From NCBI GenBank assembly GCA_947499005.1, contig CANMML010000018.1:6325-70324 (forward strand): a DNA stretch of 64,000 nt, read 5' to 3'. Both the position numbers and the translations under genes were made by a program. The notes under the pieces were generated by a model. The model saw only the letters and a list, made by a program, of their open reading frames with translations. It did not search any database and was not told where the DNA came from. The stretch is from an uncultured Aquimarina sp. (GTDB lineage Bacteria; Bacteroidota; Bacteroidia; Flavobacteriales; Flavobacteriaceae). Each line of letters starts with the position of its first letter. The first letter of the stretch is position 1. Below are positions 9,437 to 41,603 of this stretch, piece by piece.

Positions 9437-11710
9437 TTATTCAATAATTAGTTTTGTTGTTTTAAATTCATTTTTAATAAAATAAATACCGCTGGATAAA
9501 TTAGTAATGTCTAGTTCTAATTCAGAATTAGAAACATTTTTTGTCTCTATTAATTGACCAAGAACATTAAAAATATGAATAGAACCTGCTTTTAGATTTT
9601 TTAAAGTTATAATAGATGTGTTTCTAACAGGGTTAGGGAAAATGATAATGTTGTTATTGCTATTAGCTTCAAATTGGTCATTGGAAAGGTTATTTGGACT
9701 TTCAATTTGCCAATTGAAGGTCTCCCAAATATCCACGGCATTACCTTGAGGAAATAATTTGGTATTATCGATGCGCCATGGAGCATTTACCCATTTATTT
9801 GTCAAATAGCTAAACAAAGCCACTTGACCATTACCAAGGTCTTCCCATTTGAATCTATTACATGCTCTAAAACCATTGTTGTTAGCTAATAAAGCTTGAT
9901 TAGTTGAAATTCCATTGGGGTGAATAAATTGATTTGTTTTTAAAGAAAACAGCATGACTCCGCCTTTAGGGTGTCGTTGTACCATAAATTTTTCATCGTT
10001 TTCTACAGTAGTTTTGTTTGCAATTAGCTCATTATCATCGTTAACACTAACAAAACGTTGATCTCCGCCAGATTTTTGCAGCGAAATAAGTTCTCCTATT
10101 GGAGCATTATCCGGATTTGAATCTCCGCGTTCAAAGACACTGATTTGCCCCATGTGAAGTTCCTTGCCTTCTCCCTTTAGCTGAATTCTAACTACGCTAC
10201 CTTCGGTATCTATATCATAAGTACTTCCTAAGGAACTAACTTCTTCAAATATGGGAATTGACCTAAGCAGGTTACCTCCACGTTGATCATAAATTTCTAT
10301 GTTAAAGTCTTTTAAGCGATTTTGACAACAATCTTGTCTGTTCCATATTTTTATTTGTCCAATATTCACTTGGTTTTCTAAATCTACTTCCCACCATGGA
10401 TCTGTTTCTTCTGTTGTTTGATTAAAGCTAGTGACGTTATTATCTAGAGCTCTTTCAGCTCCTCTATCTGATACTAACGTACTAGATTGGAAAGCTGGTT
10501 TACCATTAGCTATGTCTGTTCCTGAAGGGAATATTAAAGGAGCATCCTCTAAGATGACAGGGTAAAAAGTATTTCCACTGGGAGGAGTAGAGGTCAATAA
10601 CCTTGGCTCAACATACTGATCAAAGACAAATACACTTCTTCTAGATGAAAATAATGAAGAATTTCCTCGACCACTTGCTCTGTTATTAAAAATGATATTG
10701 TTTTCCCCAGGTTCTTCATGTCCAAATCTTATGTTTCCAGTCGCAAAAGCGGCCCATGATCTCCATTGTTCACTTTTGACATTGTTGTTTTCAACAAGGT
10801 TAAATCCATCATCACCATTGTGAAAATTGACATCGACTTCAATATCACATTGAGTAACAACATTGTATTTTGCTCCTAATTGAATTGCAAAATGTCGTAT
10901 ACGTCTAACTCTTTCATTTGTGATTAGGTTGTGATTTCCTGTTATATCGTAATAAGCATTACCACCTCCGCCTCGGTTGAAAGCTCCATCAATAAAATTA
11001 TTTCGAAATGTATTGTGATCGGCTCTGATTTCTACAGGATCAGTACCTGCATTTTTGAAATTACAATTATCAACCCAACAGTTTTTTGTGGTTCCTAGCA
11101 TTTCTACAAAGGACACATACATATTATCTATACCATTAGGATTGTTATTGAAACACATATCTCCACAAAAGGCATTACGTGGGACATTACTGTCATCATA
11201 CAATTTGATATCCATTGGAGGTAGATATTCGAAGCTTAAATTTTCTAAAGCAGCGTTTTGAATATTAGTAAATTCTGTTGAAGTAATAGTATTGTTACCA
11301 TTAGAGCGAATAGTTACGTTAAGCTTAACCCCTTCTTTACTTTCTCCTCGAAGAATGATATTTGATTTCATCCTTATAGGTTTATCAATATCATATACAC
11401 CATTTTTGAGAAGAATAACAAATAAATCATTATTGGTCAGACTATTATCGATAGCTTGTTGAATTCCATCAGTATCAGTAGGATCAATTTCTATTTGAGG
11501 TTGATTGATGCATTGTAGTGGAATTCCATCTTCTACACCAGCCTTTTGCCATTCAATCATAAAAGGGTAGGCAGGGTCATTTTTAGTGCTATCAAATTGT
11601 ATACCTTGGTCCCCAATCTGTTGCGCTTTCAAAGTGTTGAAGCACACTACGATTACAAAGAATCCAAAATATTTTATAAGGGAATACCTTTTTTTTATTG
11701 ATCTTTCCAT
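9437..11710 (-). CDS. T9SS-secreted parallel beta-helix protein (candidate polysaccharide lyase) + F5/8-type C/fucolectin-like module + fascin-like beta-trefoil + CTD
   Basis: Signal peptide; IQQAID..VILLKNGVY..IILRG beta-helix start and Asn-ladder repeats; DIANGKPAFQSST..PWWEVDL..IKIWNRQDCCQNRL; IIIFPNPV..LSSGIYFIK..KLIIE CTD. Confidence 0.75.
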   Translation of the reverse strand: MERSIKKRYSLIKYFGFFVIVVCFNTLKAQQIGDQGIQFDSTKNDPAYPFMIEWQKAGVEDGIPLQCINQPQIEIDPTDTDGIQQAIDNSLTNNDLFVILLKNGVYDIDKPIRMKSNIILRGESKEGVKLNVTIRSNGNNTITSTEFTNIQNAALENLSFEYLPPMDIKLYDDSNVPRNAFCGDMCFNNNPNGIDNMYVSFVEMLGTTKNCWVDNCNFKNAGTDPVEIRADHNTFRNNFIDGAFNRGGGGNAYYDITGNHNLITNERVRRIRHFAIQLGAKYNVVTQCDIEVDVNFHNGDDGFNLVENNNVKSEQWRSWAAFATGNIRFGHEEPGENNIIFNNRASGRGNSSLFSSRRSVFVFDQYVEPRLLTSTPPSGNTFYPVILEDAPLIFPSGTDIANGKPAFQSSTLVSDRGAERALDNNVTSFNQTTEETDPWWEVDLENQVNIGQIKIWNRQDCCQNRLKDFNIEIYDQRGGNLLRSIPIFEEVSSLGSTYDIDTEGSVVRIQLKGEGKELHMGQISVFERGDSNPDNAPIGELISLQKSGGDQRFVSVNDDNELIANKTTVENDEKFMVQRHPKGGVMLFSLKTNQFIHPNGISTNQALLANNNGFRACNRFKWEDLGNGQVALFSYLTNKWVNAPWRIDNTKLFPQGNAVDIWETFNWQIESPNNLSNDQFEANSNNNIIIFPNPVRNTSIITLKNLKAGSIHIFNVLGQLIETKNVSNSELELDITNLSSGIYFIKNEFKTTKLIIE

Positions 11711-11825: not shown

Positions 11826-12680
11826 TTAGTTTACAATAACCTTTTTGGTAGCAGTACTACCTGTAGAAGATGTAATTTCTAATAAGTAAAAACCAGAAGG
11901 TAGACCGCTTACATCTATAGTATCTACATTACTCGTATTATTAATATATACTGTTTTACCCAAGGTGTTTTTTAAACTTACACTAGTAATATTTATATCT
12001 GAACTATCAATGTTTAAAACATCACTAGCTGGATTAGGGTAAATTTTAGTGCTGTTTGCTAATTCAAAATCTTCTGTAGATAATGTACTCATATTTCTGG
12101 TTGTAGCTCTAAATTCTACTTCTCCAATCAAGTCGAAATTACTATTTGGTACAGTCCATGTCTCTGCAAGTATCAATCTGTACTCTCTATAACCTTTCCC
12201 ATCATTTCCAGATGAATTTAAAGGTACAACAGTTGGGTTTAATTCAGTCGCACTTTGATCAGCAAAAGAGAAATTAACAGTACTTACTGTTACCCATGGA
12301 TCAGAACTAGTTGGTCTAGCTTCAACCCTCCAAACAGAAGTGAAATTAGCTTGTACATAGAATGTTATTTGATCAAGGTTTACAGGATTCAATCCAGACT
12401 CAACTACAAAATCAAACCAAGAATCTCCTTCATTCAATACCTCTCCACCAGTATGTCGGGCAGCAAAAATATCAGTAGTATTCCTCATGGTAACACCATT
12501 AAACCATCGTTGGTAAGCAGTTGCTTCCATATTTGCAATACCTCCTTGACCAGGCAATTCAAAAACAGTCACATTATTTGTGTCTTGATTTAATAAAATA
12601 GGCCCAGGAGCGATTTCTATCTGTGCAAAAGATGAAAAAGAAAGAAAGGATGTTGTAAAGAGTAAAAATAATTTTCTCAT
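11826..12680 (-). CDS. Small T9SS-secreted protein, single putative discoidin/CBM-like domain + CTD
   Basis: Signal peptide; YREYRLIL..IGEVEF discoidin-like ending; KIYPNPASD..LPSGFYLLEI..KKVIVN CTD. Confidence 0.7.
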   Translation of the reverse strand: MRKLFLLFTTSFLSFSSFAQIEIAPGPILLNQDTNNVTVFELPGQGGIANMEATAYQRWFNGVTMRNTTDIFAARHTGGEVLNEGDSWFDFVVESGLNPVNLDQITFYVQANFTSVWRVEARPTSSDPWVTVSTVNFSFADQSATELNPTVVPLNSSGNDGKGYREYRLILAETWTVPNSNFDLIGEVEFRATTRNMSTLSTEDFELANSTKIYPNPASDVLNIDSSDINITSVSLKNTLGKTVYINNTSNVDTIDVSGLPSGFYLLEITSSTGSTATKKVIVN

Positions 12681-13116: not shown

Positions 13117-13953
13117 ATGAATTATACCAAACGCTACGCTTCAAGTCCAGAAACGATCAAACGATATACTACTGATGAATTGAGAAATGAATTTCTTGTC
13201 GATGATTTAATGATAGAAGGAGAAATTAATATGACTTATTCTCATTATGATAGGTATATAGTTGGATCTGCTGTTCCTGTTAACTCGCCATTAGTATTGG
13301 AAACTATAGATCCTTTGAAGTCAACATATTTTTTAGATCGTAGAGAGTTAGGAGTCATCAATGTTGGTGGAGATGGAAAAATTAAAGTAGATGGTGAAGT
13401 GTTCGCAATCAACTTCAAAGAAGCACTATACGTTGGTATGGGAGCTAAGGAAGTAATCTTTGAAAGTGCTGATAGTGCTAATCCAGCATTGTTTTATATA
13501 AATTCTGCACCTGCACATACGGCTTTTCCTACAGCAAAAGTAGATAAGGAAAAAGCAAACCAACTAGAAATCGGAAGTTTAGAAACTGCGAATCATAGAA
13601 CGGTAAATCAAATGATTGTTGGTAAAGTAATTCCATCCTGTCAATTGCAAATGGGAATTACAGAATTGAAAGTAGGTAGTACATGGAATACCATGCCTGC
13701 GCATGTACACGATAGACGTATGGAAGCATACTTTTATTTTGATGTTCCTAAAGATCATGCAGTATGTCATTTTATGGGGCAGCCTAATGAAACAAGAAAT
13801 CTTTGGATGCATAACCACCAAGCAGTTATCTCACCGCCGTGGTCTATACATTCAGGTTCTGGAACTTCAAATTATAGTTTTGTTTGGGGGATGGCTGGTG
13901 AAAATCTAGATTATAATGATATGGATACAGCAAAGATTACCGAATTAAAGTAA
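13117..13953 (+). CDS. kduI: 5-dehydro-4-deoxy-D-glucuronate isomerase
   Basis: YSHYDR, FLDRRELGVINVGG, WNTMPAHVHDRRMEAYFYF, SPPWSIHSGSGT, WGMAGEN. Confidence 0.97.
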   Translation: MNYTKRYASSPETIKRYTTDELRNEFLVDDLMIEGEINMTYSHYDRYIVGSAVPVNSPLVLETIDPLKSTYFLDRRELGVINVGGDGKIKVDGEVFAINFKEALYVGMGAKEVIFESADSANPALFYINSAPAHTAFPTAKVDKEKANQLEIGSLETANHRTVNQMIVGKVIPSCQLQMGITELKVGSTWNTMPAHVHDRRMEAYFYFDVPKDHAVCHFMGQPNETRNLWMHNHQAVISPPWSIHSGSGTSNYSFVWGMAGENLDYNDMDTAKITELK

Positions 13954-14460: not shown

Positions 14461-15651
14461 ATGATATTTAAGTACATTTCAGTAATAGTAGTGCTAATTA
14501 CATTAATAAGTTGTGGGAAACCTAAAAAAGCAACTACAGCCTCTTTTGTAAAGATTACTAATAATTTAAATGTCAACAGAGAAAACGAAACTGTTGAAAT
14601 TATGTTAGATTCTCTTTTTGCAGATGTAGCATTTAAGAACAGTGATCATTTTTCCATTTTTGATGTCAAAAATAATACTGAGTTAATCTCTCAAAGTATT
14701 GATTACAATAATGATGGTGTTAAAGATGTAATTCTTTTTCAACCTGTAATTGAGGCACAATCTTTTTCAGAATTTAAGGTCGTTAATAAACCTACAGCAC
14801 TCGCTGTTAAAGAAGCTTGTTATTCAAGGTTTGTACCAGAGCGAACCGATGATTATGCTTGGGAAAATGACCTCGTTGCTTTTAGAACTTTCGGTCCTAA
14901 AGCCCAGTATATGGCAGAAAATAATATTAAAGGAGGGACACTTTCTAGTGGTATTGATGCATGGTTAAAACGAGTTAATTACCCAATAATTGATAAATGG
15001 TATAAGAAAGAGTTAGAAACCGAAGGTACTTACCATAAAGATACAGGAGAAGGTTTAGATAATTTCCATGTAGGAATTAGTAGAGGAGTTGGAGGTTTGG
15101 CTAAAAAATATAGTGATTCAGTATATGAATACTCTAAAAATTTTACCAAATGGAAATTACTATGCAATGGTCCAATCAGAACATCTTTTGTTTTGAATTA
15201 TAGTTCTTGGGGTAAGGATAAAAGTATAAAAGAGATTAAAAAGGTATCACTTGATAAAGGTTCATATCTAACGAAATACAACACTTCCCTAACAAATACA
15301 AATACTATATCGGTTGGACTCACATTACACGAGAATGATGGAAAAGTAAACTTTAATATTGATAAAGGGTTTGTTAGTTATTGGCAGCCTCACGGAGATT
15401 CGAAATTAGGAACAGCCATTTTAGCTGATGTTTCAGCTATTGTTGATTATAAAAAGTTTGTTACGGAAAGAAAGGATGAAAGTAATATCTATTTAGACCT
15501 TCTAGTTAAAAATAGTAATGTTATTTATTATGCAGGTTATGGTTGGAAAAAAGAGAATCGATTTTCTTCAGAGAGTGATTGGATAAATTATTTATCTGAC
15601 TTTTCCACAAAAATGAAGCACCCATTAAAGCTTGATTATTTGAAGCGTTAG
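14461..15651 (+). CDS. DUF4861 family lipoprotein
   Basis: Lipobox LISC; YSRFVPERTDDYAWENDLVAFRTFGP, SSGIDAWLKR, EGLDNFHVG. Confidence 0.85.
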   Translation: MIFKYISVIVVLITLISCGKPKKATTASFVKITNNLNVNRENETVEIMLDSLFADVAFKNSDHFSIFDVKNNTELISQSIDYNNDGVKDVILFQPVIEAQSFSEFKVVNKPTALAVKEACYSRFVPERTDDYAWENDLVAFRTFGPKAQYMAENNIKGGTLSSGIDAWLKRVNYPIIDKWYKKELETEGTYHKDTGEGLDNFHVGISRGVGGLAKKYSDSVYEYSKNFTKWKLLCNGPIRTSFVLNYSSWGKDKSIKEIKKVSLDKGSYLTKYNTSLTNTNTISVGLTLHENDGKVNFNIDKGFVSYWQPHGDSKLGTAILADVSAIVDYKKFVTERKDESNIYLDLLVKNSNVIYYAGYGWKKENRFSSESDWINYLSDFSTKMKHPLKLDYLKR

Positions 15652-25097: not shown

Positions 25098-25115
25098 AAA
25101 ATTAAAAAAAGAATA

Positions 25116-30669: not shown

Positions 30670-30671
30670 TC

Positions 30672-31160
30672 ATGGCATTTAGATTAAAATTAGACAAAGT
30701 GTTGAAGGTAGCTATTGTGATCATTATGGCAATCATGGTATTAAATGTATTGTGGCAAGTGATTAGTAGGTATTTTTTTAATGAGCCAAGTTCGTTTACA
30801 GACGAATTATCGAGGTACTTAATGATTTGGTTAGGTATTTTAGGAGCTTCTTATGTTTCGGGACAAAACAAGCACGTGGCTATAGATTTTTTTCCAAAAA
30901 AGCTTAGTGATGTATACCAAAGAAGACTAAAGAATTTTACAAAAATATTAATTGTTGTAGCTAGTATTAGTGTTTTTGTAATTGGTGGAGGGCGTTTAGT
31001 GTATGTTACATTTCACCTACAACAGCTTTCTCCAGCGCTGCAATTACCATTAGCATTAGTTTATTTGGTATTACCACTAAGTGGTTTGATCATAGTTTAT
31101 TATAAGTTACATGATTTATTGGCACCACCAAAGGGTATAATACCTCAAGACTTGCCTTGA
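30672..31160 (+). CDS. dctQ: TRAP transporter small permease
   Basis: Four TM segments, QVISRYFF..TDELSRYLMIW..HVAID. Confidence 0.92.
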   Translation: MAFRLKLDKVLKVAIVIIMAIMVLNVLWQVISRYFFNEPSSFTDELSRYLMIWLGILGASYVSGQNKHVAIDFFPKKLSDVYQRRLKNFTKILIVVASISVFVIGGGRLVYVTFHLQQLSPALQLPLALVYLVLPLSGLIIVYYKLHDLLAPPKGIIPQDLP

Positions 31161-31210
31161 AATTAAAATTTTATTTCATATAAACAGAGTAGTTTACTAA
31201 AAAAATAATT

Positions 31211-32506: not shown

Positions 32507-32522
32507 AAACGTTTTAAAAGAA

Positions 32523-34103
32523 ATGAAATTATTAGTTGCCATATTAACATTCTTAATGACGATTACATCGTCAGTTAGTTGTGCACAGCAAATAGTTTAT
32601 TCAAATACAAAAGAGAAGGAAATAAAAAAGCCAAATGTGTTAATTATTTATCCAGATCAATTGAGAAGGTATAGTGCTAGTTTTTGGTCTGAAGAAAAAT
32701 ACAATAGTTATGCCCAAGGTAGTCCAGATCCTGTATTAACTCCTACTATGGATAAGTTAGCTAATAAAGGTGTTGTTTTTACAAATGCGATCAGTAACTA
32801 TCCGCTTTGCAGTCCAGCAAGAGGGATGCTATTAACAGGGCAGTATCCATCACAAACTGGGATTCAAAATAATTGTAAAAAAGGAAGGGAAGATAGTTTG
32901 AAAGATGATGTAGAAACATGCACAGATATCTTTTCGAAAATAGGTTATAACACGGCTTATTTTGGTAAATGTCATTGGCTTAAAAATGAACCTTTATTTA
33001 ATGAAGTAGGAGATTATATAGGTGATAAAAGAGCACCAGGAGGACATTTTGTGAATAATTACGATACTTATATTCCTCCAGGAAAGTCTAGGCATCATAT
33101 AGATTACTTCTATCAATCAGTTCGAGATAGTCATTTCAATCCATTAGTGTACTCTAATGACCCTAATGCAATTGAGGGGAAGAAAGATGGTGAGCTATAC
33201 AAACCTAATACGTTTTCGACTAAAAATGAAGCAGAAAAGATTATTGGATTTTTAAAAAATAAAAATGGTGTTAGAGATACCAACAAGCCTTTTTTTATGG
33301 TATGGTCTATAAACCCACCTCATAGTCCATGGGATGATAAGAACACAGATATGAAAGTATTGGATAGCCTTTATGGAAAAGAACAGTTTGCATCGATCAA
33401 ATCTTTATTAACAAGGGATAATGTTGATGTAGGTGTAGCTGACTATGTGCGAAATTATTATGCGAATGTAACGAGTGTTGATGGATATATAGGTAAAGTA
33501 ATAGATGCTTTGGATCTTATCAATGAATTAGATAATACACTAATTGTTTTAAGTTCCGATCATGGAGAAATGCTTGGTAGCCATGCTAAAAAAGGGAAGA
33601 ATACTTTTGAGACAGAAGCAATTGCTATTCCAATGATTATGCACTATCCCAAAAAAATAAAAGCGGGTATAATCAATCAAGTTTTGTTTAGTGTACCAGA
33701 TGTATTACCCACAACATTGGGTGTTTTAGGCTTAAAAGATTTTATTCCTAAAGCTACACAAGGTTATGATTTGTCAAACAGCATATTGTCAGGAGATAAG
33801 TCGAATGCTTCTAATGAGACTATATCAAATCCTAAAGCAGCACTTCTTATTTTACGTAATGGAAGAGGTGTTTTTACAGAAAATTATACGTTGTGTATTC
33901 TAGAAAAAAAACAAAAAAAAGAAGTAGAGATTTTTCTTTATGATAATAAAAATGATCCATATCAATTGGAAAAAGTGAAAGCTTCTGTAAAGCCTATAGA
34001 GACTTCTCGTTTGTTAAAATTTTTAGGAAAAGAATTACAAAGAACCAATGACAGTTGGTTTCGAAAAAGAAAACATACAGATTTAATAGATTATGATAGT
34101 TAA
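32523..34103 (+). CDS. Cys-type S1 sulfatase lipoprotein resembling chondroitin 4-O-sulfatases (S1_27-like)
   Basis: CSPAR (CxPxR) motif, YPDQLR, GSPDPVLTP, GVRDTNKPFF, NPPHSP, SDHGEM; ATG 32523 gives a clean lipoprotein signal (SVSC). Confidence 0.8.
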   Translation: MKLLVAILTFLMTITSSVSCAQQIVYSNTKEKEIKKPNVLIIYPDQLRRYSASFWSEEKYNSYAQGSPDPVLTPTMDKLANKGVVFTNAISNYPLCSPARGMLLTGQYPSQTGIQNNCKKGREDSLKDDVETCTDIFSKIGYNTAYFGKCHWLKNEPLFNEVGDYIGDKRAPGGHFVNNYDTYIPPGKSRHHIDYFYQSVRDSHFNPLVYSNDPNAIEGKKDGELYKPNTFSTKNEAEKIIGFLKNKNGVRDTNKPFFMVWSINPPHSPWDDKNTDMKVLDSLYGKEQFASIKSLLTRDNVDVGVADYVRNYYANVTSVDGYIGKVIDALDLINELDNTLIVLSSDHGEMLGSHAKKGKNTFETEAIAIPMIMHYPKKIKAGIINQVLFSVPDVLPTTLGVLGLKDFIPKATQGYDLSNSILSGDKSNASNETISNPKAALLILRNGRGVFTENYTLCILEKKQKKEVEIFLYDNKNDPYQLEKVKASVKPIETSRLLKFLGKELQRTNDSWFRKRKHTDLIDYDS

Positions 34104-34143: not shown

Positions 34144-35154
34144 ATGAAAAGAATTAATATTTCAATATCCCTACTTATTGTTGCTTGTTCTACAGTTTTT
34201 AGTCAAGAAAAGGAAATAACATACCCTTACACGTGGACAACAGAACAAAATCCTGTAGTTGAACATGCATATTTATGTGATCCATCAGCGAAAGTGTTTA
34301 AAGATGGTAAAATATGGGTGTATTTATCTCATGATTCAGATACAGCTGTTGATTATAGTAGTATGGCTGATTATCATATTCTTTCTACAGAGGATTTGAA
34401 AACATGGACAGATCATGGGGTAGGATTAAGTTTAGATGATATTTCATGGGCCGATTCGCACCTTTGGGCACCTGATGGTATTGAGCGTAATGGTAAATAT
34501 TATCTCTATGCTCCTGCAAACTTTCATATAGGTGTTTTTGTCAGTAATTCACCTGAAGGGCCTTATGTAGATGCTCTCGGGAAACCTTTAGTACCTATTG
34601 ATAGAGCTATAGATCCGATGGTATTTATAGATGATGATGATCAAGCATATTTATATTTTTCTAGAAATGGAGAGGATTGTTATGTGGTCAAGTTAAAAGA
34701 TAATATGGTTGAGACAGAAGGGGTAATTCATGAACTAACGAATTGGTCTATTCGAAATACTGTAGACGATGATTTCAATTTTGTAGAAGGTCCTTTTATG
34801 CATAAATACAATGGAACATATTATTTAACCTATCCAGCAAAAAGATACAAACATGGTACTCGACGAAATAAAGAAGGAGATGAGGTAATCTGTTATGCAA
34901 CTAGTGATAGCCCTATAGGACCATTTAAATATAAAGGCTTATTGGCTACAGAGAGTGGAGTTCACACAATTCATCAATCGATTATAAAATTAGACGGAGA
35001 GTATTATTTCTTTTATCATAATGGAGGCTTAGCAAAAAAGAATGGACATCAAAAACATAAGATGTATAGACGAAGTCTTTGTGTCAATAAATTGCATCAT
35101 AATGCTGATGGTACGCTTAAACTAATACAGCAAACAGGAAATATTTTTGATTAA
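34144..35154 (+). CDS. GH43 glycoside hydrolase
   Basis: Signal peptide; catalytic positions CDPSA, AIDPMVF, FVEGPF; YYLTYP; YYFFYH. Confidence 0.88.
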   Translation: MKRINISISLLIVACSTVFSQEKEITYPYTWTTEQNPVVEHAYLCDPSAKVFKDGKIWVYLSHDSDTAVDYSSMADYHILSTEDLKTWTDHGVGLSLDDISWADSHLWAPDGIERNGKYYLYAPANFHIGVFVSNSPEGPYVDALGKPLVPIDRAIDPMVFIDDDDQAYLYFSRNGEDCYVVKLKDNMVETEGVIHELTNWSIRNTVDDDFNFVEGPFMHKYNGTYYLTYPAKRYKHGTRRNKEGDEVICYATSDSPIGPFKYKGLLATESGVHTIHQSIIKLDGEYYFFYHNGGLAKKNGHQKHKMYRRSLCVNKLHHNADGTLKLIQQTGNIFD

Positions 35155-35277: not shown

Positions 35278-35706
35278 ATGTTTTTTATTAAACAAATAAT
35301 TTATGTTTTGACTATTCTAAGTTTAGGAATAAGTTTTACTTCTGCTACTGTAGATACAGGAAAGAAAAAGAAAGAGTTTGTTAAATATGAGGGAGGAGAT
35401 TCTTATCAAATTAATGAAAAGGGACAAATACAGATTCCACTTTCTTATAAAGTAAAAAAAGATCGGCTGATTGCTACTTCATTAAGGGATAGTGATGGAA
35501 AGTGGATTGTAGGAGGTAGATCTATTGTAAAAAAAGGTACAGGGAAGGTATTGATCACACTAGGTTATGTTGGAAGAGAAGTTAGAACAGGAATGGATTA
35601 TCAAATTGAATTTCACATACGAGAAATAGGAGATCAGTTTACATGGCGTGATGCTATTGATCATGGACTAGTCAAGCATATTTCTGCAAGAAGAAAATTT
35701 AATTAA
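35278..35706 (+). CDS. Small basic secreted protein, tandem paralogue 1
   Basis: Hydrophobic N-terminus; aligns with 35797-36213 (GQI.IP.SY.V, GKW..GG, HIR..G..TWRDAI). Confidence 0.75.
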   Translation: MFFIKQIIYVLTILSLGISFTSATVDTGKKKKEFVKYEGGDSYQINEKGQIQIPLSYKVKKDRLIATSLRDSDGKWIVGGRSIVKKGTGKVLITLGYVGREVRTGMDYQIEFHIREIGDQFTWRDAIDHGLVKHISARRKFN

Positions 35707-35796
35707 CAATATGATTCAAGGCCGTAAAGGCAAGCTTTAGATAAAGTTGAATCACAATTATCGAGTCAATTATTTATAAAACAAAATTTTTTACTT

Positions 35797-36213
35797 ATGA
35801 ATTTTATTAAAAAACTTATTTATGCGCTACTATTCATTTCGTTATCATCTACATCTGTAATGATAGGTCAGAAAAGAGTTAAAGCACCAGAGACAGTGAA
35901 TTTTGAAGGAGAGGAAACATATAAAATAAATTACAGAGGGCAGATTAAAGTACCCTTTTCATATAGTGTAAATAAGAGTAGGGTAGTGAGTGCTTCGTTA
36001 CATAATAGTACAGGCAAATGGCTTGCTGGTGGAACAGAAATTGTAGACAAAGGAAAAGGAAAAGTAGAAGTTTATTTAGGGTACAGTAAAGCGAATATCG
36101 AGCCTGGGAAAAATTATGAGATTAGGTATCATATTAGAAAAGTTGGAGAGCGATACACATGGCGTGATGCTATTGTCCAAGGAAATAAAAAAGGCATTCG
36201 TGTTAGAAAGTAA
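35797..36213 (+). CDS. Small basic secreted protein, tandem paralogue 2
   Basis: As for paralogue 1; identical 19-bp DNA block acatggcgtgatgctattg at 35641 and 36157. Confidence 0.75.
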   Translation: MNFIKKLIYALLFISLSSTSVMIGQKRVKAPETVNFEGEETYKINYRGQIKVPFSYSVNKSRVVSASLHNSTGKWLAGGTEIVDKGKGKVEVYLGYSKANIEPGKNYEIRYHIRKVGERYTWRDAIVQGNKKGIRVRK

Positions 36214-36483: not shown

Positions 36484-38469
36484 TTACTCCCTAAAACTAA
36501 AAGCATCAACAGCTATAGGTGCTTCTTTTTTTTCATTAAAATGCTCTCCGGTTATACGAAGCTCGAGCTTGTGAAGCCCTTTATGCATAATTGGCGTTTG
36601 ATAGATTACGGTATTATGGATATCAGTACCAAAAAAACAATCAATTTTTTCAACAAATTGATTGTCTATATATACGTCACACATTCCCATAGCTTTGCTA
36701 ATGTTGCCAATAGATCGAGCTTGAGTACCATTAAAAAAGAAACTTACAGCTGCTCCTTTATCATAAGAGATCTGTTCTTCTCCCATGTATATATTCTCTC
36801 CGATATTGTTCTTTTCCCATGTTCCAGTATAACTTACAGAAAAATGTTTATCATCAACTATATTCCATGAAGAAGAAGTGTCTATAATGACTTCATATTC
36901 TGATAAGGTATCTTTAGGAGTAAAATATAATTTATGTTGTTCATAAGGAGATAACTTAGGAATTTGATAAGAGTTTACTAGATTTCTAGAGTTTCCTTGT
37001 TTTGAAAATATATTAACATTGCATGCTTTTGAACTATGTAAACCAATATTTTCAATAACTGTATACAGACGTTCTTTTTTATTTGGATTATTAACATCTA
37101 TAGGAGTTGAAATTAGAGCAGCAGGATCTTCTTCAAAATTTGGCAATAACGCGTAGCCATGAAATAATTCGTTTGAAGTCGTCTTACCAATAAGTTTTAG
37201 ATCGTAATGTGTAGATGGAATATTAAGACTTTTTTTGTTGAAAGTGATTATCAAATCGTTTTTATCAATAGTATGTTTTACTACTTTACTTCCTTCACCA
37301 TAATTTACAATATTGGATGATCCAAGAGTTAAAGTGCTTATATCAATATCTTTTATGGCATTAAATTTCTTTTCAGATTTTATTCTAATTTTTATTTCAG
37401 TGTCTTTTTGTAGCGTTTTATGATTTTCTATTTCAATAATCCTTTCGACAGCTAAAGGAAGAATAACATGTTTTGAGTTATGGTTGTCATTACCAAGGTC
37501 TTTTCTTTTGGCAACATCAATAACACCAAAAGACATATAGGTAGCTCGACCATATTCATCTTGGATTACTTTTGGACGTTCAATTTTTACCCATTCGTTA
37601 GTTGTTCCATCAGTATACTTAAATATGGTTTTATCATAAGCCAATCCAGGTTCAATAATCCAATCTATACCATTCAAAGAACGCATATGTACCGATTTTT
37701 TTTCAATAGCATGATTATAGACTACATGATATTGATGCCTGCTTTTCCAAATAATAGGATCTTCTGGATACCCACTATATCTACTATAATTATGTGCCGA
37801 AACAATATTAAAAGGGCCTAGAATACCATTATTAGAGATCATTACATCTCCTCTTTTTGTGAAAAATAAAAAGCTGCCATCTTTACGTTCTAGTCCTGTT
37901 AGGTTGGTTTTTAAATGCGATAAACCTTTATATCCTCGAGTGTTGATATTTAGTTTTCCTTTAAAATTCCATGCTCCATTAAGCGTGTTTGAAGCGTAAA
38001 CATTAGCATCACTTGTATGTAATATATAAGAGCCATCTTTTAAAGCTATAATTTCGGGATTATGTCCTTTTTCTAATATAGTGTTTGTAACCTTATAAGG
38101 CCCCATTGGGTTATCACCAACAGCATGGGCTACTTCCGATTTAGGCCAACCCCAATGACCTGTGCTCTCTTTCCATCTACAAATAGCAATATGATATTTA
38201 TTATCTGTCCCTTTAATCGCATTTCCACCCCAGTATGACCAAATATGGTCTTCAATTCCATGTTCAATATCTCTTGGGAGTACATTAGCTGCACCCCAGA
38301 TTTCTTTTGTGGTTAATTTTCCATAAATGGGTATTGGTAAAAAATAGTCCTTAAACTGCCCTCCATCAATTAATTTTCTATTTGCATCATAAGGCTCCTG
38401 AGATAAAGCTATGGTAGCGATCGTATTTAAAATAAAAAAGAACAGAAAATATTTTTTTTGAGGTTTCAT
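36484..38469 (-). CDS. Secreted five-bladed propeller GH of the GH43/62/32/68/117-like group, with C-terminal CARDB-like and jelly-roll modules
   Basis: WSYWGG..YHIAICRW..VAHAVGDNPMGPY, GHNPEI, EDPIIW, IERPKV; C-terminal GAAVSFFFNGTQ..VYIDNQ..GLHKLELR; ATG 38469 gives a signal peptide. Confidence 0.7.
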   Translation of the reverse strand: MKPQKKYFLFFFILNTIATIALSQEPYDANRKLIDGGQFKDYFLPIPIYGKLTTKEIWGAANVLPRDIEHGIEDHIWSYWGGNAIKGTDNKYHIAICRWKESTGHWGWPKSEVAHAVGDNPMGPYKVTNTILEKGHNPEIIALKDGSYILHTSDANVYASNTLNGAWNFKGKLNINTRGYKGLSHLKTNLTGLERKDGSFLFFTKRGDVMISNNGILGPFNIVSAHNYSRYSGYPEDPIIWKSRHQYHVVYNHAIEKKSVHMRSLNGIDWIIEPGLAYDKTIFKYTDGTTNEWVKIERPKVIQDEYGRATYMSFGVIDVAKRKDLGNDNHNSKHVILPLAVERIIEIENHKTLQKDTEIKIRIKSEKKFNAIKDIDISTLTLGSSNIVNYGEGSKVVKHTIDKNDLIITFNKKSLNIPSTHYDLKLIGKTTSNELFHGYALLPNFEEDPAALISTPIDVNNPNKKERLYTVIENIGLHSSKACNVNIFSKQGNSRNLVNSYQIPKLSPYEQHKLYFTPKDTLSEYEVIIDTSSSWNIVDDKHFSVSYTGTWEKNNIGENIYMGEEQISYDKGAAVSFFFNGTQARSIGNISKAMGMCDVYIDNQFVEKIDCFFGTDIHNTVIYQTPIMHKGLHKLELRITGEHFNEKKEAPIAVDAFSFRE

Positions 38470-38885
38470 CAGTATCACCATTTTGTCTTGAGGAGCACCC
38501 ATTAATAGATATTCAATATCATATTTATTCTGAATGTCTAGGGCATTATTAAATAATACTACAAGGTATTTATAAAACAGATATTTAAATGGAATTATAT
38601 AGCCATATTTTGTTATTTTTTAACTTAATTTAGTTTTAAATATGATTAATTTGGCGTAATGAGTGTGTTTTTTGTTTGATAAAATAAATACTTTTATAAA
38701 TGCTGGATCATATCCATTATTAATAACACACAAATAGTTTTATCGCTTTTTTAAGTTAGAATAATAACCAAGAAACAAGGCTGTTTATTAGGCGATATAT
38801 GTATTTCTAACGGTTCATATTTCACAATGAACTTATGTTTACGCATTGTGTACTCAACAACTTAAACTACTCAAAATATATCATT

Positions 38886-41603
38886 ATGAAGACAGGTAAA
38901 AGTATCGGACTTATTTACGTGCTGTTTTTTTTAAGCTCATTTAATTTTTATGGACAAACTAAAAAACAACAACCAGAATATTCTAAAGGGGGGTATTATG
39001 AATTACCAAATTCAGGAAGGGCAGTTTTAGATTTTAATGTTGGTTGGAAATATCATAAAGGTAGTGTAGCTAATGCAAACAATAGAGGGTATGATGATGC
39101 TTCTTGGGAAATAGTGAATACACCTCATGGGTTAGAATTGAATCCTTTAATTGCAAGCGGGTCGAATAACTATCAAGGAGAGGCTTGGTATAGAAAACAT
39201 TTTACAATACCAGATAGTCTTACTGAAAAACGTTTAGTGATCCATTTTGAATCTGTTATGGGGAAATCGAAAGTCTGGTTAAATGGTAAGCTTTTGACCA
39301 CGCATTATGGAGGATATCTACCTTTTAGTGTTGATATAACGGATGAAATAGAAGAAAACAATGTTATAGCGGTATGGACAGATAACAGTGACGATCCTAA
39401 TTACCCTCCTGGTAAACAGCAGAAAGTATTGGATTTTTCTTATTTCGGAGGTATTTATAGGGATGTTTGGCTTATAGCTACAAACAATGTTTTTATTACC
39501 AATAGTAATGCATCAACAAAAGTAGCTGGAGGTGGTGTATTTGTACATTATGAGAACTTATCTAAAGAAAGTGTTGATGTCAAGATCCAAACAGAAATAA
39601 AAAATATCGATTCATCTAGCAAAACTCTTAAAGTACATTATGTGTTGAAAGATGAAAATGATAAGCAGGTATCAGAACAATTTAGTACCATAAAAATTCC
39701 TAAAAATGCATCAAAGCAAAATAAGGTATCTATCAAGTTAAAAGATCCTTTGCTTTGGTCACCTAAAAGGCCTTATCAATATGGACTTGAAATAAGTATT
39801 CTAGATACATCTGAAGGTATTATAGATGGAGTAAAATTAAAATTAGGTATTCGTAAAATAGAGTTTAGAGGTAGAGAAGGCTTTTTTCTAAATAATGAGC
39901 CTTATGAGGGAAAATTAATGGGGGCTAACAGACATCAAGACTTTGCATATATTGGCAATGCATTACCCAATTCGGGTCAATGGCGAGATGCTATTATTTT
40001 AAAAAATGCAGGGTGTGAAATTATTCGCGGTGCACATTACCCAGCAGACCCTGCTTTTATGGATGCTTGTGATGCACTGGGAATATTTGTTATTGTTGCC
40101 ACACCAGGATGGCAATTTTGGAATGATACTAATCCGCAGTTTGAAAAGCTTATATATAATGATATAAGGCAAATGGTTAGACGAGATAGAAATCATCCCT
40201 CGGTAATTCTGTGGGAACCTATTCTAAATGAAACAGAATATCCAGATTATTTTGCTGAAAAAACACACAATTTAGTGCATGAAGAGTATCCATTTCAAGG
40301 AGCTTTTACTGCTTGTGATGCCAGAAATCACGAAGGTTCCGAATTTTTTGATCTGGTTTACAGTCACCCTCGGTTTGATCGAAAAATTCCAAAGAGTGAA
40401 TTCAATTCTAAAGAGAAAAAAATACAGCCTTCTCAATTCGATTATAGTACAGAGCATAGGAGTATTTTTACAAGAGAATGGGGAGATAATGTAGACGATT
40501 GGAATTCACATAATTCGACTAGTAGAGTAGCTAGAGGTTGGGGCGAGTCGGCACAATTAATACAAGCAAATCATTATGCTAATACAAAACATCGATTAAC
40601 CAATTGGGAAACCATCTACAGTACACCTAGACAACATGTTGGTGGGGCACTTTGGCATTCATTTGATCACCAAAGAGGGTACCACCCAGATCCATTTTAT
40701 GGGGGTATAGCAGATGCTTTCAGACAGCCCAAATACTCCTATTATTTGTTTGAAGCACAACAAAAAGCCTCAGAAAGTAAGCCAATGGCATATATAGCAC
40801 ACGAGATGTCTCCTTTTTCAAGTAAAGATGTTAGTGTATTTACAAATTGTGATGAGGTTAGACTTATTGTAATGGGAAAAGATACCTTAAGTATCAAGAA
40901 AAACAAAGATGCTTTTAATATGCCTAATCCAATTATGGTTTTCGAAGATGTATTTGATTTTATGGATTTAAAAAAGCTTTACAGAAGTAAACGACATAAA
41001 GAGGCTACCATTGTAGCAGAGGGCATTATAGATGGGAAAGTGGTAGTTTCATCAACAAAGAGGCCAACAAATAGAAGGACAAAAATTAAATTAGAATTAG
41101 CGGATAATGATATTGCACTTGTTGCCAATGGATCCGATATAATAACTGTTATAGCCTCGATAGTGGATGATAATGGAAATGTGAAACGTTTGTGTAATGA
41201 TTATATAAAATTTGAGATAGAGGGAGAGGGAGAAATTGTTGGTGATGCTAGTATAATGGCTAATCCTAGAAAAGTAGATTGGGGTACAGCTCCTGTTTTA
41301 ATTCGTTCTACTACGAATGCAGGGAACATTAAAATTAAAGCTTCCGTATTAAAAGAGGGGATACATACACCAATTTCCGCAGTGTTATCGTTTGAATCGA
41401 TTGAACCCGATATTTCATTATTATTTGAAGATATACCTGCTTTGATTTCTAGTTCAGAACCCGAAGTTTTGGCAAAAACTAAAATATCTAATAATAGAGT
41501 TGGTATTTTAGAAAGTAAAATTTTAAAACTAGAAAAAGAGTTAAATCGTTATAAACTTAAAGAGGTAGAGAAACAACAACAAATTTTTGAAGGGAATGAT
41601 TGA
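38886..41603 (+). CDS. GH2 beta-galactosidase-like enzyme
   Basis: FNVGWKY, WYRKHF, GGIYRDVWL, GANRHQD, IRGAHYP, RDRNHPSVILWEPILNE, REWGD; ATG 38886 preferred. Confidence 0.9.
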   Translation: MKTGKSIGLIYVLFFLSSFNFYGQTKKQQPEYSKGGYYELPNSGRAVLDFNVGWKYHKGSVANANNRGYDDASWEIVNTPHGLELNPLIASGSNNYQGEAWYRKHFTIPDSLTEKRLVIHFESVMGKSKVWLNGKLLTTHYGGYLPFSVDITDEIEENNVIAVWTDNSDDPNYPPGKQQKVLDFSYFGGIYRDVWLIATNNVFITNSNASTKVAGGGVFVHYENLSKESVDVKIQTEIKNIDSSSKTLKVHYVLKDENDKQVSEQFSTIKIPKNASKQNKVSIKLKDPLLWSPKRPYQYGLEISILDTSEGIIDGVKLKLGIRKIEFRGREGFFLNNEPYEGKLMGANRHQDFAYIGNALPNSGQWRDAIILKNAGCEIIRGAHYPADPAFMDACDALGIFVIVATPGWQFWNDTNPQFEKLIYNDIRQMVRRDRNHPSVILWEPILNETEYPDYFAEKTHNLVHEEYPFQGAFTACDARNHEGSEFFDLVYSHPRFDRKIPKSEFNSKEKKIQPSQFDYSTEHRSIFTREWGDNVDDWNSHNSTSRVARGWGESAQLIQANHYANTKHRLTNWETIYSTPRQHVGGALWHSFDHQRGYHPDPFYGGIADAFRQPKYSYYLFEAQQKASESKPMAYIAHEMSPFSSKDVSVFTNCDEVRLIVMGKDTLSIKKNKDAFNMPNPIMVFEDVFDFMDLKKLYRSKRHKEATIVAEGIIDGKVVVSSTKRPTNRRTKIKLELADNDIALVANGSDIITVIASIVDDNGNVKRLCNDYIKFEIEGEGEIVGDASIMANPRKVDWGTAPVLIRSTTNAGNIKIKASVLKEGIHTPISAVLSFESIEPDISLLFEDIPALISSSEPEVLAKTKISNNRVGILESKILKLEKELNRYKLKEVEKQQQIFEGND

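What the first reader, a model, noticed from the sequence alone, without database searches (positions are those of the whole stretch)
9437..41603. Marine PUL with a gene set pointing to chondroitin/dermatan-sulfate-like proteoglycans, using TRAP uptake and several unassigned proteins
Seen: HTCS, SGBP-SusC-SusD, GH88, DUF4955 beta-helix protein, TRAP, one CxPxR sulfatase, GH43, GH2, kduI and DUF4861 in one contiguous block, plus at least five uncharacterised secreted proteins. Established: GH88 acts on lyase-generated delta-4,5-uronyl ends and KduI isomerises the released 4-deoxy-5-keto-uronate; the gut Bacteroides chondroitin-sulfate locus combines HTCS, SusCD, SGBPs and a PL29 lyase, with GH88 and a 4-O-sulfatase encoded nearby. 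Inference: this is a marine flavobacterial counterpart for animal GAG-like polymers with a different architecture (no PL8/PL12/PL33, TRAP import, T9SS-exported lyase candidate). This is the best candidate for an undescribed system in the window.
Basis: partly seen in the sequence, partly recalled or inferred. Interest (0 to 1): 0.8.

Follow-up and report, generated by a model that had tools for sequence, protein, structure and literature searches.

The report
Marine chondroitin-like glycan utilization locus
This is a real, widely conserved but untested sugar-harvesting gene cluster of a marine flavobacterium, whose core enzymes are relatives of the gut Bacteroides chondroitin sulfate system and which most likely degrades a sulfated, uronic-acid-containing polymer; the exact polymer is unknown.

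Summary
Window 9437-41603 is one polysaccharide utilization locus (PUL) bounded by housekeeping genes. It holds an HTCS regulator, a 508-aa lipoprotein, SusC/SusD, GH88, a DUF4955 protein, a TRAP transporter, a CSPAR sulfatase, GH43, GH2, KduI and DUF4861.

- The DUF4955 protein is a PL29 lyase homolog: 37% identity over its whole mature length to a BT3328-family protein. It lacks BT3328's N-terminal ~290 residues and has no lipoprotein cysteine, so it is probably periplasmic.
- The sulfatase is closest to the S1_27 chondroitin/dermatan 4-O-endosulfatases (E 3e-83).
- DUF4861 passes the BT3233-family cutoff.
- The TRAP binding protein is closest to galacturonate- and glucuronate-bound structures.

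The core GH88-PL29-sulfatase, often with the HTCS and SusCD, recurs in 63 loci of marine Flavobacteriaceae, Marinilabiliales and Pedobacter.

A chondroitin/dermatan-like backbone is therefore the best reading. However, fucosidases, GH43 enzymes and an F-type-lectin-like domain accompany the core in the window or in related loci. This hints at a decorated polymer rather than plain animal chondroitin sulfate.

Two unassigned proteins now have predicted folds. One is a T9SS-secreted β-helix of an uncharacterized family, syntenic with chondroitinase-ABC-like PL8 genes in three gammaproteobacteria. The other is a five-bladed β-propeller, probably a glycosidase.

Verdict: a new variant of a known kind, of moderate interest.

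The parts
9437..11710 (-). 757-aa T9SS-secreted protein. It has an N-terminal right-handed β-helix (aa ~30-390) of an uncharacterized family, an F-type-lectin-like domain (aa ~400-530), a further domain, and a Por_Secre_tail sorting domain. It is the candidate extracellular depolymerase or debranching enzyme.
   Evidence: Pfam finds F5_F8_type_C_2 and Por_Secre_tail. PDB sequence hits are fucolectins (3CQO at 1e-13). The RxDxxxxR motif is present, but the fucose-contacting His is Gln. The AF2 model has pLDDT 91.6 and shows a β-helix. The best PDB fold hits reach only E 2e-5 and TM<0.46: PL1, PL6 chondroitinase B, GH28, CE8. Homologs sit next to PL29 in L034, L035, L039 and L043, and lie in the same cluster as chondroitinase-ABC-like PL8 genes in three gammaproteobacteria: adjacent in Paraglaciecola, ~9 kb away in Pseudocolwellia and Colwellia.
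11826..12680 (-). 284-aa T9SS-secreted protein of unknown function.
   Evidence: Por_Secre_tail at E 1e-15. There is a signal peptide. Partial homologs with a sorting domain lie near PL29 loci L036, L063 and L027.
13117..13953 (+). KduI, 5-dehydro-4-deoxy-D-glucuronate isomerase. Cytoplasmic.
   Evidence: NCBIfam PRK00924 equivalog, 440 bits against a cutoff of 250. Pfam KduI. No signal peptide.
14461..15651 (+). DUF4861 / BT3233-family lipoprotein.
   Evidence: NCBIfam BT_3233_fam equivalog, 366.6 bits against a cutoff of 320. Lipoprotein signal. BT3233 is needed for growth on CS, HA and heparin (PMC8121099).
16029..20171 (+). Hybrid two-component sensor/regulator (HTCS).
   Evidence: Reg_prop x7, Y_Y_Y, HisKA, HATPase_c, Response_reg and HTH_18. 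An HTCS of the same cluster adjoins the core in 35 loci.
20387..21913 (+). 508-aa surface lipoprotein, a candidate surface glycan-binding protein.
   Evidence: No Pfam or NCBIfam hit. The lipoprotein signal is followed by acidic residues. Orthologs sit directly upstream of the same SusC/SusD type in 13 loci.
21945..26849 (+). SusC-like TonB-dependent transporter (21945-25097) and SusD-like lipoprotein (25116-26849).
   Evidence: TIGR04056 at 843 bits. SusD_RagB and SusD-like_3.
26895..28121 (+). GH88 unsaturated glucuronyl hydrolase. Lipoprotein.
   Evidence: PDB 3WIW at E 1e-98; streptococcal and Bacillus UGLs at 1e-45 to 1e-49. Catalytic Asp residues equivalent to SagUGL D115 and D175 are conserved, while the sulfate-recognition residues R236, S368 and K370 are not.
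28118..29686 (+). PL29-family lyase homolog (β-helix + DUF4955). It is a short form with a type-I signal peptide, so it is predicted to be periplasmic.
   Evidence: NCBIfam BT_3328_fam at E 2e-132, covering profile positions 292-836 of 840. It is 37% identical over 507 aa (E 5e-117) to P0376, which passes the equivalog cutoff. There is no Cys in the signal peptide.
29689..32506 (+). TRAP transporter DctP (29689-30669, lipoprotein), DctQ (30672-31160) and DctM (31211-32506). Predicted importer of the uronate-derived monosaccharide.
   Evidence: Pfam DctP, DctQ and DctM. The best solved relatives of DctP are 4N8Y (galacturonate-bound) and 4X8R (glucuronate-bound) at E 1e-71 to 1e-53. The ligands are confirmed in PMC11668362. 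Gaps to the neighbouring genes are 3 bp.
32496..34103 (+). S1 formylglycine sulfatase, S1_27-like (chondroitin/dermatan 4-O-endosulfatase type).
   Evidence: PDB 6S21 (BT3349) at E 2.6e-83, 8DI0 at 3e-82 and 6J66 (Vibrio CS/DS 4-O-endosulfatase) at 7e-70. The next subfamilies score 1e-30 or weaker. The CSPAR motif is present.
34144..35154 (+). GH43 exo-glycosidase (β-xylosidase / α-L-arabinofuranosidase type).
   Evidence: Pfam GH43 at 1e-37. PDB Xsa43E at 6e-60 and β-xylosidases.
35278..36213 (+). Two tandem paralogous small secreted proteins (142 and 138 aa) of unknown function.
   Evidence: No family hit. They are 46% identical to each other. The closest relative locus L002 has a single copy.
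36484..38502 (-). 672-aa secreted protein: a five-bladed β-propeller (GH43/GH32-like fold) followed by C-terminal β-sandwich domains. Probable glycoside hydrolase of an unassigned family.
   Evidence: No Pfam or NCBIfam hit. The AF2 model has pLDDT 90.7. Foldseek finds 3NQH (BT_2959) at 9e-13, then GH43 xylosidases, an exo-β-1,3-galactanase and GH32 enzymes. There are 623 homologs, some named 'glycoside hydrolase family protein' by NCBI. The Zobellia homolog lies in a SusCD locus with four sulfatases.
38835..41603 (+). GH2 glycosidase, more like a β-galactosidase than a β-glucuronidase.
   Evidence: Pfam GH2 N-terminal, central and C-terminal domains. NCBIfam gives GalA 290 bits and GalB 248 bits, above β-glucuronidase LacZ4 at 207 bits, all below cutoff. 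No N-x-K motif is present. An ortholog at 65% identity sits next to a β-helix homolog and PL29 in Algibacter L034.

Best explanation
This is a polysaccharide utilization locus for a sulfated polymer with 4-linked uronic acid and a chondroitin/dermatan-sulfate-like backbone. Its natural form is possibly decorated.

Proposed mechanism. All steps are inferred from homology; none has been assayed.
1. The HTCS senses a periplasmic breakdown product and switches on the roughly 16-kb operon.
2. Outside the cell, the T9SS-secreted β-helix protein, which carries lectin-like domains, makes the first cuts or removes decorations.
3. The 508-aa lipoprotein and SusD capture fragments, and SusC imports them.
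4. In the periplasm, the short PL29 lyase cleaves the bond to C4 of the uronic acid by β-elimination.
5. The S1_27-like sulfatase removes sulfate, by analogy 4-O-sulfate on GalNAc.
6. GH88 releases the Δ4,5-unsaturated uronate.
7. GH43, the β-propeller protein and GH2 remove neutral sugars.
8. The hexuronate-type TRAP system takes the uronate product across the inner membrane.
9. KduI isomerises it. KduD, KdgK and KdgA are encoded elsewhere in the genome.
10. The BT3233-family lipoprotein has an unknown supporting role.
For: Family assignments:
- PL29.
- S1_27-like sulfatase with the CSPAR motif.
- GH88 with both catalytic Asp residues.
- BT3233 family above its cutoff.
- KduI equivalog.
- DctP closest to galacturonate- and glucuronate-bound binding proteins.

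These are the same families that B. thetaiotaomicron uses for CS/DS/HA (PMC6994673, PMC9067506).

Operon structure: gaps are at most 124 bp (most under 55 bp) between 20387 and 36213.

Synteny over 63 loci: GH88 in 54, the sulfatase in 45, an HTCS in 35 and SusC in 28.

Independent link to chondroitin-type lyases: in Paraglaciecola, two homologs of the secreted β-helix lie beside a chondroitinase-ABC-like PL8. The same cluster holds a sulfatase 39% identical to the window's, plus GH88, KduD, KduI and DctP. Pseudocolwellia and Colwellia show β-helix/PL8 synteny as well.

Localisation signals fit the periplasmic cascade.
Against: - No enzyme here has been assayed, and PL29 has one characterized member known to me.
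- Identity to the characterized proteins is only about 37-40%, so specificity may have shifted.
- No GalNAc or GlcNAc catabolic gene, S1_15 or S1_9 sulfatase, or PL8 is in the locus.
- Related loci carry GH29/GH95 fucosidases, GH43 enzymes, an acetylesterase and an aldose 1-epimerase. Plain CS, DS or HA would not need these.
- Many hosts are alga-associated.
- The closest relative locus (an uncultured Aquimarina, L002) has no sulfatase between DctM and GH43, where the window's lies, nor elsewhere in the 21.5 kb fetched.
- The nearest solved GH88 comes from a heparin locus.
- The extracellular step rests on a fold assignment alone.
Confidence: 0.6

Rival explanations
1. The locus targets a non-animal, fucose- and xylose-bearing sulfated glucuronan-type heteropolysaccharide from brown algae, diatoms or marine microbes. 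Xylofucoglucuronan-like polymers are one example. PL29 and the S1_27-like sulfatase would then have diverged in specificity from their gut relatives.
For: The core is common in alga-associated genera: Zobellia, Tamlana fucoidanivorans, Flavivirga algicola, Algibacter, Wenyingzhuangia and Formosa. Fucosidases accompany it: GH29 in L003, L010, L025, L031 and L046, and GH95 in L017. GH43 enzymes occur beside the core in about 9 of the 63 other loci, and in the window itself. One locus has a DUF4955-GH43 fusion. The secreted protein carries an F-type-lectin-like domain. An aldose 1-epimerase lies beside the core in L007 and L009. No hexosamine catabolic genes were seen.
Against: The three diagnostic enzymes (PL29, S1_27, BT3233 family) have their only characterized relatives in GAG degradation. 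β-helix homologs co-localise with chondroitinase-ABC-like PL8 genes. Soil Pedobacter carries the same core. The fucose-contacting His of the lectin-like domain is replaced by Gln. The window itself has no fucosidase.
Confidence: 0.25
2. The locus is specialised for fucosylated chondroitin sulfate or a similar branched invertebrate GAG. The secreted β-helix/lectin protein and the GH43-like enzymes would remove branches before the PL29 lyase can act.
For: This reading reconciles the GAG-type core with the fucosidases in related loci and the F-type-lectin-like domain. The hosts are marine and benthic.
Against: The window holds no fucosidase and only one sulfatase. The lectin-like domain lacks the canonical His. 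The Pedobacter loci are terrestrial. No enzyme of this family is known to act on this polymer.
Confidence: 0.1
3. The locus is an ulvan or pectin/rhamnogalacturonan locus. GH88/105, KduI, GH43, GH2 and hexuronate uptake also occur in those systems.
For: The Pfam GH88 model also covers GH105, and the hit is weak. KduI, DUF4861, the GH43, GH2 and hexuronate-type TRAP genes are generic uronate-polymer genes.
Against: No PL1, PL9, PL10, PL11, GH28, CE8 or CE12 domain was found in the locus, and no rhamnosidase (GH78 or GH106) domain either. No Pfam model assigns a known ulvan-lyase family, although PL24/25/28/40 were not searched specifically. The GH88 matches unsaturated glucuronyl hydrolases at 1e-98. 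The lyase is PL29 and the sulfatase is S1_27-like.
Confidence: 0.05

Closest known systems
Bacteroides thetaiotaomicron PUL-CS/DS/HA (PUL57, BT3324-BT3350, with BT3233 elsewhere)
   Same: HTCS regulator, a SusC/SusD pair, a PL29 lyase homolog, GH88, an S1_27-type sulfatase and a BT3233-family protein. The overall logic is the same: lyase, then desulfation, then unsaturated glucuronyl hydrolase.
   Different: - No PL8 or PL33 lyases, and no S1_15 or S1_9 sulfatases.
- The PL29 protein lacks the N-terminal ~290 residues and the lipoprotein signal of surface-located BT3328.
- No detectable homologs of the SGBPs BT3329 and BT3330.
- Genes absent from the gut locus as described in the papers read: a TRAP transporter inside the operon, T9SS-secreted proteins, GH43, GH2 and a β-propeller hydrolase, and an adjacent kduI.
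The same marine PUL type in other Flavobacteriaceae, untested as far as I could find (for example Wenyingzhuangia heitensis L039, Ochrovirga pacifica L043, Flavivirga rizhaonensis L055, uncultured Aquimarina L002)
   Same: The order HTCS-lipoprotein-SusC-SusD-GH88-PL29-(CBM96)-sulfatase, with 53-75% identity for the PL29 protein.
   Different: Many of these loci add a second PL29 paralog with a lipoprotein signal, and DUF6250, CBM96, a second sulfatase or GH43 with an F5/8-C domain. The window instead has the TRAP, GH43, GH2 and β-propeller module, which only L002 shares in full.
Gammaproteobacterial GAG-type clusters (Paraglaciecola sp. L3A3 L069; Pseudocolwellia agarivorans L070; Colwellia sp. 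L071)
   Same: Homologs of the secreted β-helix domain. In Paraglaciecola also an S1_27-like sulfatase (39% identity), GH88, KduI (59%), KduD and DctP.
   Different: The lyase is a chondroitinase-ABC-like PL8, not PL29. There is no SusCD or T9SS. The clusters carry extra oxidative sugar-acid pathway genes.
Pedobacter heparinus heparin locus GH88 (Phep_2830, PDB 3WIW)
   Same: It is the closest solved relative of the window's GH88 (E 1e-98).
   Different: That locus uses S1_8, S1_9 and S1_11 sulfatases (PMC10154612); by my recollection it also uses heparinases. None of these is present here.

Membership tests
Bacteroidota polysaccharide utilization locus (PUL) | Adjacent SusC-like TonB-dependent transporter and SusD-like lipoprotein, with carbohydrate-active enzymes and a regulator | tested here: met
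   TIGR04056 at 843 bits. SusD_RagB and SusD-like_3. HTCS, GH88, PL29, GH43 and GH2 lie in one block.
PL29 polysaccharide lyases (founding member BT3328) | Sequence homology across the catalytic β-helix and the DUF4955 region | tested here: met
   BT_3328_fam at E 2e-132 over profile positions 292-836 of 840. 37% identity and E 5e-117 to P0376, which passes the equivalog cutoff.
PL29 polysaccharide lyases (founding member BT3328) | Orthology to BT3328: the NCBIfam equivalog cutoff and the full 840-position architecture with an N-terminal region and lipoprotein signal | tested here: not met
   443 bits against a cutoff of 1100. The N-terminal ~290 profile positions are absent. The type-I signal peptide has no Cys.
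PL29 polysaccharide lyases (founding member BT3328) | β-eliminative cleavage of CS, DS or HA | not testable with these tools
   This needs an enzyme assay (A235). The catalytic residues of PL29 were not available to me, because the founding paper is not held.
S1_27 sulfatases (CS/DS 4-O-endosulfatases) | Formylglycine motif C-x-P-x-R, and best full-length similarity to S1_27 members | tested here: met
   CSPAR is present. 6S21 scores 284 bits, 8DI0 280 bits and 6J66 239 bits, against at most 109 bits for other subfamilies.
S1_27 sulfatases (CS/DS 4-O-endosulfatases) | Conservation of the BT3349 subsite residues that hold GlcA and GalNAc4S | tested here: inconclusive
   The alignment was obtained, but I could not map the chain numbering reliably to the published residues.
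GH88 unsaturated glucuronyl hydrolases | Family-level homology and the two catalytic Asp residues | tested here: met
   3WIW at 1e-98. Asp residues aligned with SagUGL D115 and D175 are conserved.
B. thetaiotaomicron-type CS/DS/HA PUL | Periplasmic PL8 lyases plus S1_15 and S1_9 sulfatases and the SGBPs BT3329 and BT3330 | tested here: not met
   No Lyase_8 domain and only one sulfatase are in the locus. The 508-aa lipoprotein has no family hit.
BT3233 family (DUF4861) | NCBIfam equivalog cutoff | tested here: met
   366.6 bits against a cutoff of 320.
Hexuronate-binding TRAP solute-binding proteins | Closest solved relatives bind D-glucuronate or D-galacturonate | tested here: met
   The top hits are 4N8Y and 4X8R at E 1e-71 and 1e-69. 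Their ligands are confirmed in PMC11668362. Ligand binding by this protein itself was not tested.
F-type lectin (fucolectin / CBM47-like) domain | The His...RxDxxxxR fucose-binding triad | tested here: inconclusive
   Fold-level homology is clear (3CQO at 1e-13). RQDCCQNR is present, but the position where I recall the fucose-contacting His (from memory of the eel agglutinin sequence, not from an alignment) reads Gln.

The most novel reading that the evidence does not exclude
The window's locus and its many relatives degrade a marine GAG-like polymer that has not been defined. That polymer would have a chondroitin-type, PL29-cleavable, sulfated backbone carrying fucose, xylose or galactose decorations. 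The T9SS-secreted β-helix domain would be the founding member of a new carbohydrate-active enzyme family (lyase or hydrolase) that opens this polymer outside the cell. The 672-aa β-propeller protein would be a second new glycosidase family.
Probability: 0.25. Interest if true: 0.7.

Novelty: new variant of a known kind. Interest (0 to 1): 0.45.

Why it matters
How marine bacteria turn over anionic sulfated glycans is a live question for the ocean carbon cycle. GAG degradation has been dissected almost only in gut Bacteroides and in Pedobacter.

This locus shows that a trimmed GAG toolkit is widespread in marine Flavobacteriaceae. The toolkit consists of a PL29 lyase, GH88, an S1_27-like sulfatase and a BT3233-family protein. 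It is wired differently from the gut system: the lyase is probably periplasmic, uronate uptake is by a TRAP system, and some partner proteins are secreted through T9SS.

The locus offers concrete targets for enzyme discovery:
- a second branch of PL29;
- an unassigned secreted β-helix family that tracks chondroitin-type lyases in two phyla;
- an unassigned β-propeller hydrolase family.

The DUF4861/BT3233 protein also sits next to kduI here, which may help assign its function.

Tried and rejected
- **PDB sequence searches.** The DUF4955 protein gave no hit. The 672-aa protein gave only one insignificant hit, E 0.26.
- **Literature.** 'DUF4955' returned no papers. Searches for marine PL29 or GH88 chondroitin loci found no description of this PUL type. 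The founding PL29 paper and the TRAP screening paper are not held.
- **Source contig.** Looking up the window's own PL29 protein found nothing on record.
- **Promoter and terminator scan.** Counts were at chance level and the scan does not cover Bacteroidota promoters, so it was uninformative.
- **Is the secreted β-helix a divergent PL29?** I rejected this. Profile-profile comparison aligns only 55 columns of the N-terminal cap.
- **Is GH88 orthologous to a Pedobacter gene in the same PUL type?** I rejected this. Phep_2830 lies in the heparin locus.
- **Is there a kduD remnant in the 508-bp gap after kduI?** No. tblastn found nothing in the whole window.
- **GH2 as a β-glucuronidase.** This is not favoured. 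β-galactosidase models score higher and there is no N-x-K motif. It remains unproven.
- **Sulfatase subsite residues.** I tried to check the BT3349 subsite residues but could not resolve the numbering.
- **Context of β-helix homologs.** In Flavivirga aquatica and Vibrio coralliilyticus the context showed no carbohydrate genes.


Full report
**1. What is there**

The block runs from 9437 to 41603. On the left it is bounded by thrS, infC and rplT. On the right it is bounded by an unrelated propeller-Dabb gene, an HbpS-like gene, a cNMP-binding regulator and icd. G+C is about 33% throughout.

Genes from 20387 (lipoprotein) to 36213 lie on one strand with gaps of at most 124 bp. GH88 and PL29 overlap by 4 bp. 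PL29/DctP and DctP/DctQ are 3 bp apart. The TRAP system is therefore embedded in the operon, not merely nearby.

The closest relative found is a contig of an uncultured Aquimarina sp., with 75% identity for the PL29 protein.

**2. Sharper family assignments**

*PL29 lyase.*
- The DUF4955 protein hits NCBIfam BT_3328_fam, the PL29 hyaluronan/chondroitin endo-lyase of B. thetaiotaomicron, at E 2e-132. The match covers only profile positions 292-836 of 840 and scores 443 bits against a cutoff of 1100.
- A library-wide search found 383 representative clusters at E<=1e-30, with lengths from 500 to 2900 residues.
- One of them, P0376 (824 aa), passes the equivalog cutoff. It is 37% identical to the window protein over 507 residues, E 5e-117, covering the window protein's whole mature length.
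- The protein is therefore a PL29 family member but not a BT3328 ortholog. It lacks the N-terminal third.
- Its signal peptide has no cysteine. BT3328 is a surface enzyme (PMC9067506).

*Sulfatase.*
- It carries the CSPAR motif.
- Its best solved relatives are BT3349 (6S21, E 2.6e-83), 8DI0 and the Vibrio CS/DS 4-O-endosulfatase (6J66, 7e-70).
- Other subfamilies score 1e-30 or weaker.

*GH88.*
- It matches Pedobacter GH88 3WIW at 1e-98, and both catalytic Asp residues are conserved.
- The streptococcal sulfate-recognition residues are not conserved.

*DUF4861.* It passes the BT3233-family cutoff. BT3233 is needed for growth of B. thetaiotaomicron on CS, HA and heparin (PMC8121099).

*KduI.* It is an equivalog hit.

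*TRAP binding protein.*
- The top fourteen solved relatives of DctP score E 1e-71 to 1e-53, clearly ahead of the rest.
- The two best, 4N8Y and 4X8R, were crystallised with galacturonate and glucuronate.

*Accessory glycosidases.*
- GH43 resembles β-xylosidase/α-L-arabinofuranosidase enzymes.
- GH2 scores higher on β-galactosidase than on β-glucuronidase models, and lacks the N-x-K motif that I recall as typical of glucuronidases.

**3. The unassigned proteins**

*The 757-aa T9SS protein.*
- Its N-terminal domain gives a confident AF2 model (pLDDT 91.6) of a right-handed β-helix.
- It has no close solved relative. The best Foldseek E is 2e-5 with TM below 0.46, and the hits spread over PL1, PL6, GH28 and CE8.
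- It shares only an N-terminal cap with PL29.
- The middle domain is F-type-lectin-like. It keeps RxDxxxxR, but at the position where I recall the fucose-contacting His (from memory of the eel agglutinin sequence, not from an alignment) it has Gln.

*The 672-aa protein.*
- It models (pLDDT 90.7) as a five-bladed β-propeller followed by β-sandwich domains.
- It is nearest to BT_2959 and to GH43/GH32 enzymes.
- Its Zobellia homolog lies in a SusCD locus with four sulfatases.

*The rest.* The two small proteins are paralogs, 46% identical. They, the 284-aa T9SS protein and the 508-aa lipoprotein remain unassigned.

**4. Comparative evidence**

A scan of one genome per species returned 63 loci with a PL29 relative. 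I then ran tblastn and clustered the ORFs of these loci.

| Neighbour within 10 kb of the PL29 gene | Loci |
|---|---|
| GH88 | 54 |
| Same sulfatase type | 45 |
| HTCS | 35 |
| Same SusC type | 28 |
| SusD | 19 |
| DUF4861 | 15 |
| KduI | 13 |
| 508-aa lipoprotein | 13 |
| TRAP genes | 6-8 |

- The order HTCS-lipoprotein-SusC-SusD-GH88-PL29-(CBM96)-sulfatase recurs in Wenyingzhuangia, Ochrovirga, Flavivirga and a Polaribacter MAG; the closest Aquimarina locus (L002) has the same order but no sulfatase.
- Zobellia species have DUF4861-KduD-KduI divergent from HTCS-GH88-PL29-sulfatase, without SusCD.
- Pedobacter and a Sphingobacteriaceae MAG have GH88-SusC-SusD-PL29-sulfatase followed by a GH29 fucosidase.
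- Other recurring neighbours are a second sulfatase, GH43 with an F5/8-C domain, DUF6250, CBM96, a SASA-type esterase, GH29 and GH95 fucosidases, a DUF4955-GH43 fusion, and aldose 1-epimerase with KdgK and KDPG aldolase.
- Several loci carry extra PL29 paralogs of ~555 aa (most with a lipobox-like signal) or of 790-1131 aa. The window has only the short soluble form.
- The GH43, small-protein, GH2 and β-propeller module is shared in full only with the Aquimarina relative. That relative lacks the sulfatase at this position and has one small protein instead of two.

**5. An independent link to chondroitin-type degradation**

- Homologs of the secreted β-helix domain sit next to PL29 in four Bacteroidota loci.
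- In Paraglaciecola sp. L3A3, two tandem copies lie beside a 1081-aa PL8 with the chondroitinase-ABC domain set (Lyase_N, Lyase_catalyt, Lyase_8).
- The same cluster holds a sulfatase 39% identical to the window's, GH88, KduD, KduI (59%) and DctP.
- Pseudocolwellia agarivorans and Colwellia sp. show the β-helix gene and the same PL8 type in one conserved cluster.
- Two other homologs have no carbohydrate context.

**6. Interpretation**

The three most diagnostic families (PL29, S1_27-like and BT3233) have their only characterized relatives in glycosaminoglycan breakdown. The β-helix family tracks chondroitin-type lyases in a second phylum. The best reading is a PUL for a chondroitin/dermatan-like sulfated polymer, working through a periplasmic cascade of lyase, sulfatase and GH88. 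Uronate would be taken up by the TRAP system and enter the KduI pathway.

The localisation of each step is inferred from signal peptides. All activities are inferred from homology at about 37-50% identity.

Fucosidases, GH43 enzymes, an esterase and an epimerase occur in related loci. The lectin-like domain is present here, hexosamine catabolic genes are absent, and many hosts are alga-associated. Together these argue that the natural substrate is decorated, or not of animal origin. I give the GAG-like backbone 0.6, a non-animal fucose/xylose-bearing sulfated glucuronan 0.25, specifically fucosylated CS 0.1, and ulvan or pectin 0.05.

**7. Comparison and novelty**

The nearest known system is the B. 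thetaiotaomicron CS/DS/HA locus (PMC6994673). The window's locus shares its regulator type, transporter pair, PL29, GH88 and S1_27. It fails that locus's other defining features: PL8 lyases, S1_15 and S1_9 sulfatases, the SGBPs BT3329 and BT3330, and a surface PL29.

My literature searches found no description of a marine PL29 locus. The only marine mention is a passing note of a 'rarely described' PL29 in a Colwellia MAG.

I rate it a new variant of a known kind. It is a real, conserved and experimentally untested PUL type with two unassigned enzyme families attached. It is of moderate interest rather than a surprise.

Noticed in passing
window 47617-47644 (-): Rfam L19-Flavobacteria ribosomal protein leader (44 bits against a gathering score of 31.5), directly upstream of rplS (47239-47586). 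This supports a Flavobacteriia origin.
   Followed up: no
window 61599-62498 (+) and 62607-63926 (-): A PL14 polysaccharide lyase (E 3e-31) lies next to a ricin-type lectin protein with a T9SS sorting domain. This is a small separate glycan-degrading pair at the window's end.
   Followed up: no
window 1886-5647 (-): A 1253-aa protein whose only family hit is a weak RHS repeat near the C-terminus (E 3e-4). Otherwise unassigned.
   Followed up: no
window 13953-14461: A 508-bp non-coding gap lies between kduI and the DUF4861 gene, at the place where many relatives carry kduD. It contains a long perfect hairpin (AGTTAAAACTATGCACT / AGTGCATAGTTTTAACT). No kduD remnant was found anywhere in the window.
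   Followed up: partly
L002 (uncultured Aquimarina sp. CANLCT010000026), 14276-14433 and 15503-20684: The closest relative locus has no sulfatase between dctM and GH43 and only one copy of the small secreted protein. Its 672-aa β-propeller gene sits after GH2 on the same strand. This indicates recent gain, loss or inversion events in this part of the locus.
   Followed up: partly
L070 10001-21239 and L071 10001-21242 (Pseudocolwellia, Colwellia); L069 1-8634 (Paraglaciecola): A conserved gammaproteobacterial cluster joins the β-helix family and a chondroitinase-ABC-like PL8 to GntR, DGOK, KDPGal aldolase, SDR, an SGL lactonase-like protein, an IlvD/EDD dehydratase and DHDPS. This looks like an oxidative sugar-acid pathway for an unidentified neutral sugar of the same polymer.
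   Followed up: no
L017 14942-18118: A 1058-aa protein fuses a PL29-like β-helix/DUF4955 region to a GH43 β-xylosidase with its C-terminal domain. It lies beside a GH95 fucosidase. The fusion links PL29-type and GH43 activities on one substrate.
   Followed up: no
window 41741-43279 (-): A secreted 512-aa protein has a weak lactonase-like β-propeller match and a C-terminal Dabb (stress-responsive A/B barrel) domain. It abuts the PUL but is absent from all related loci.
   Followed up: no
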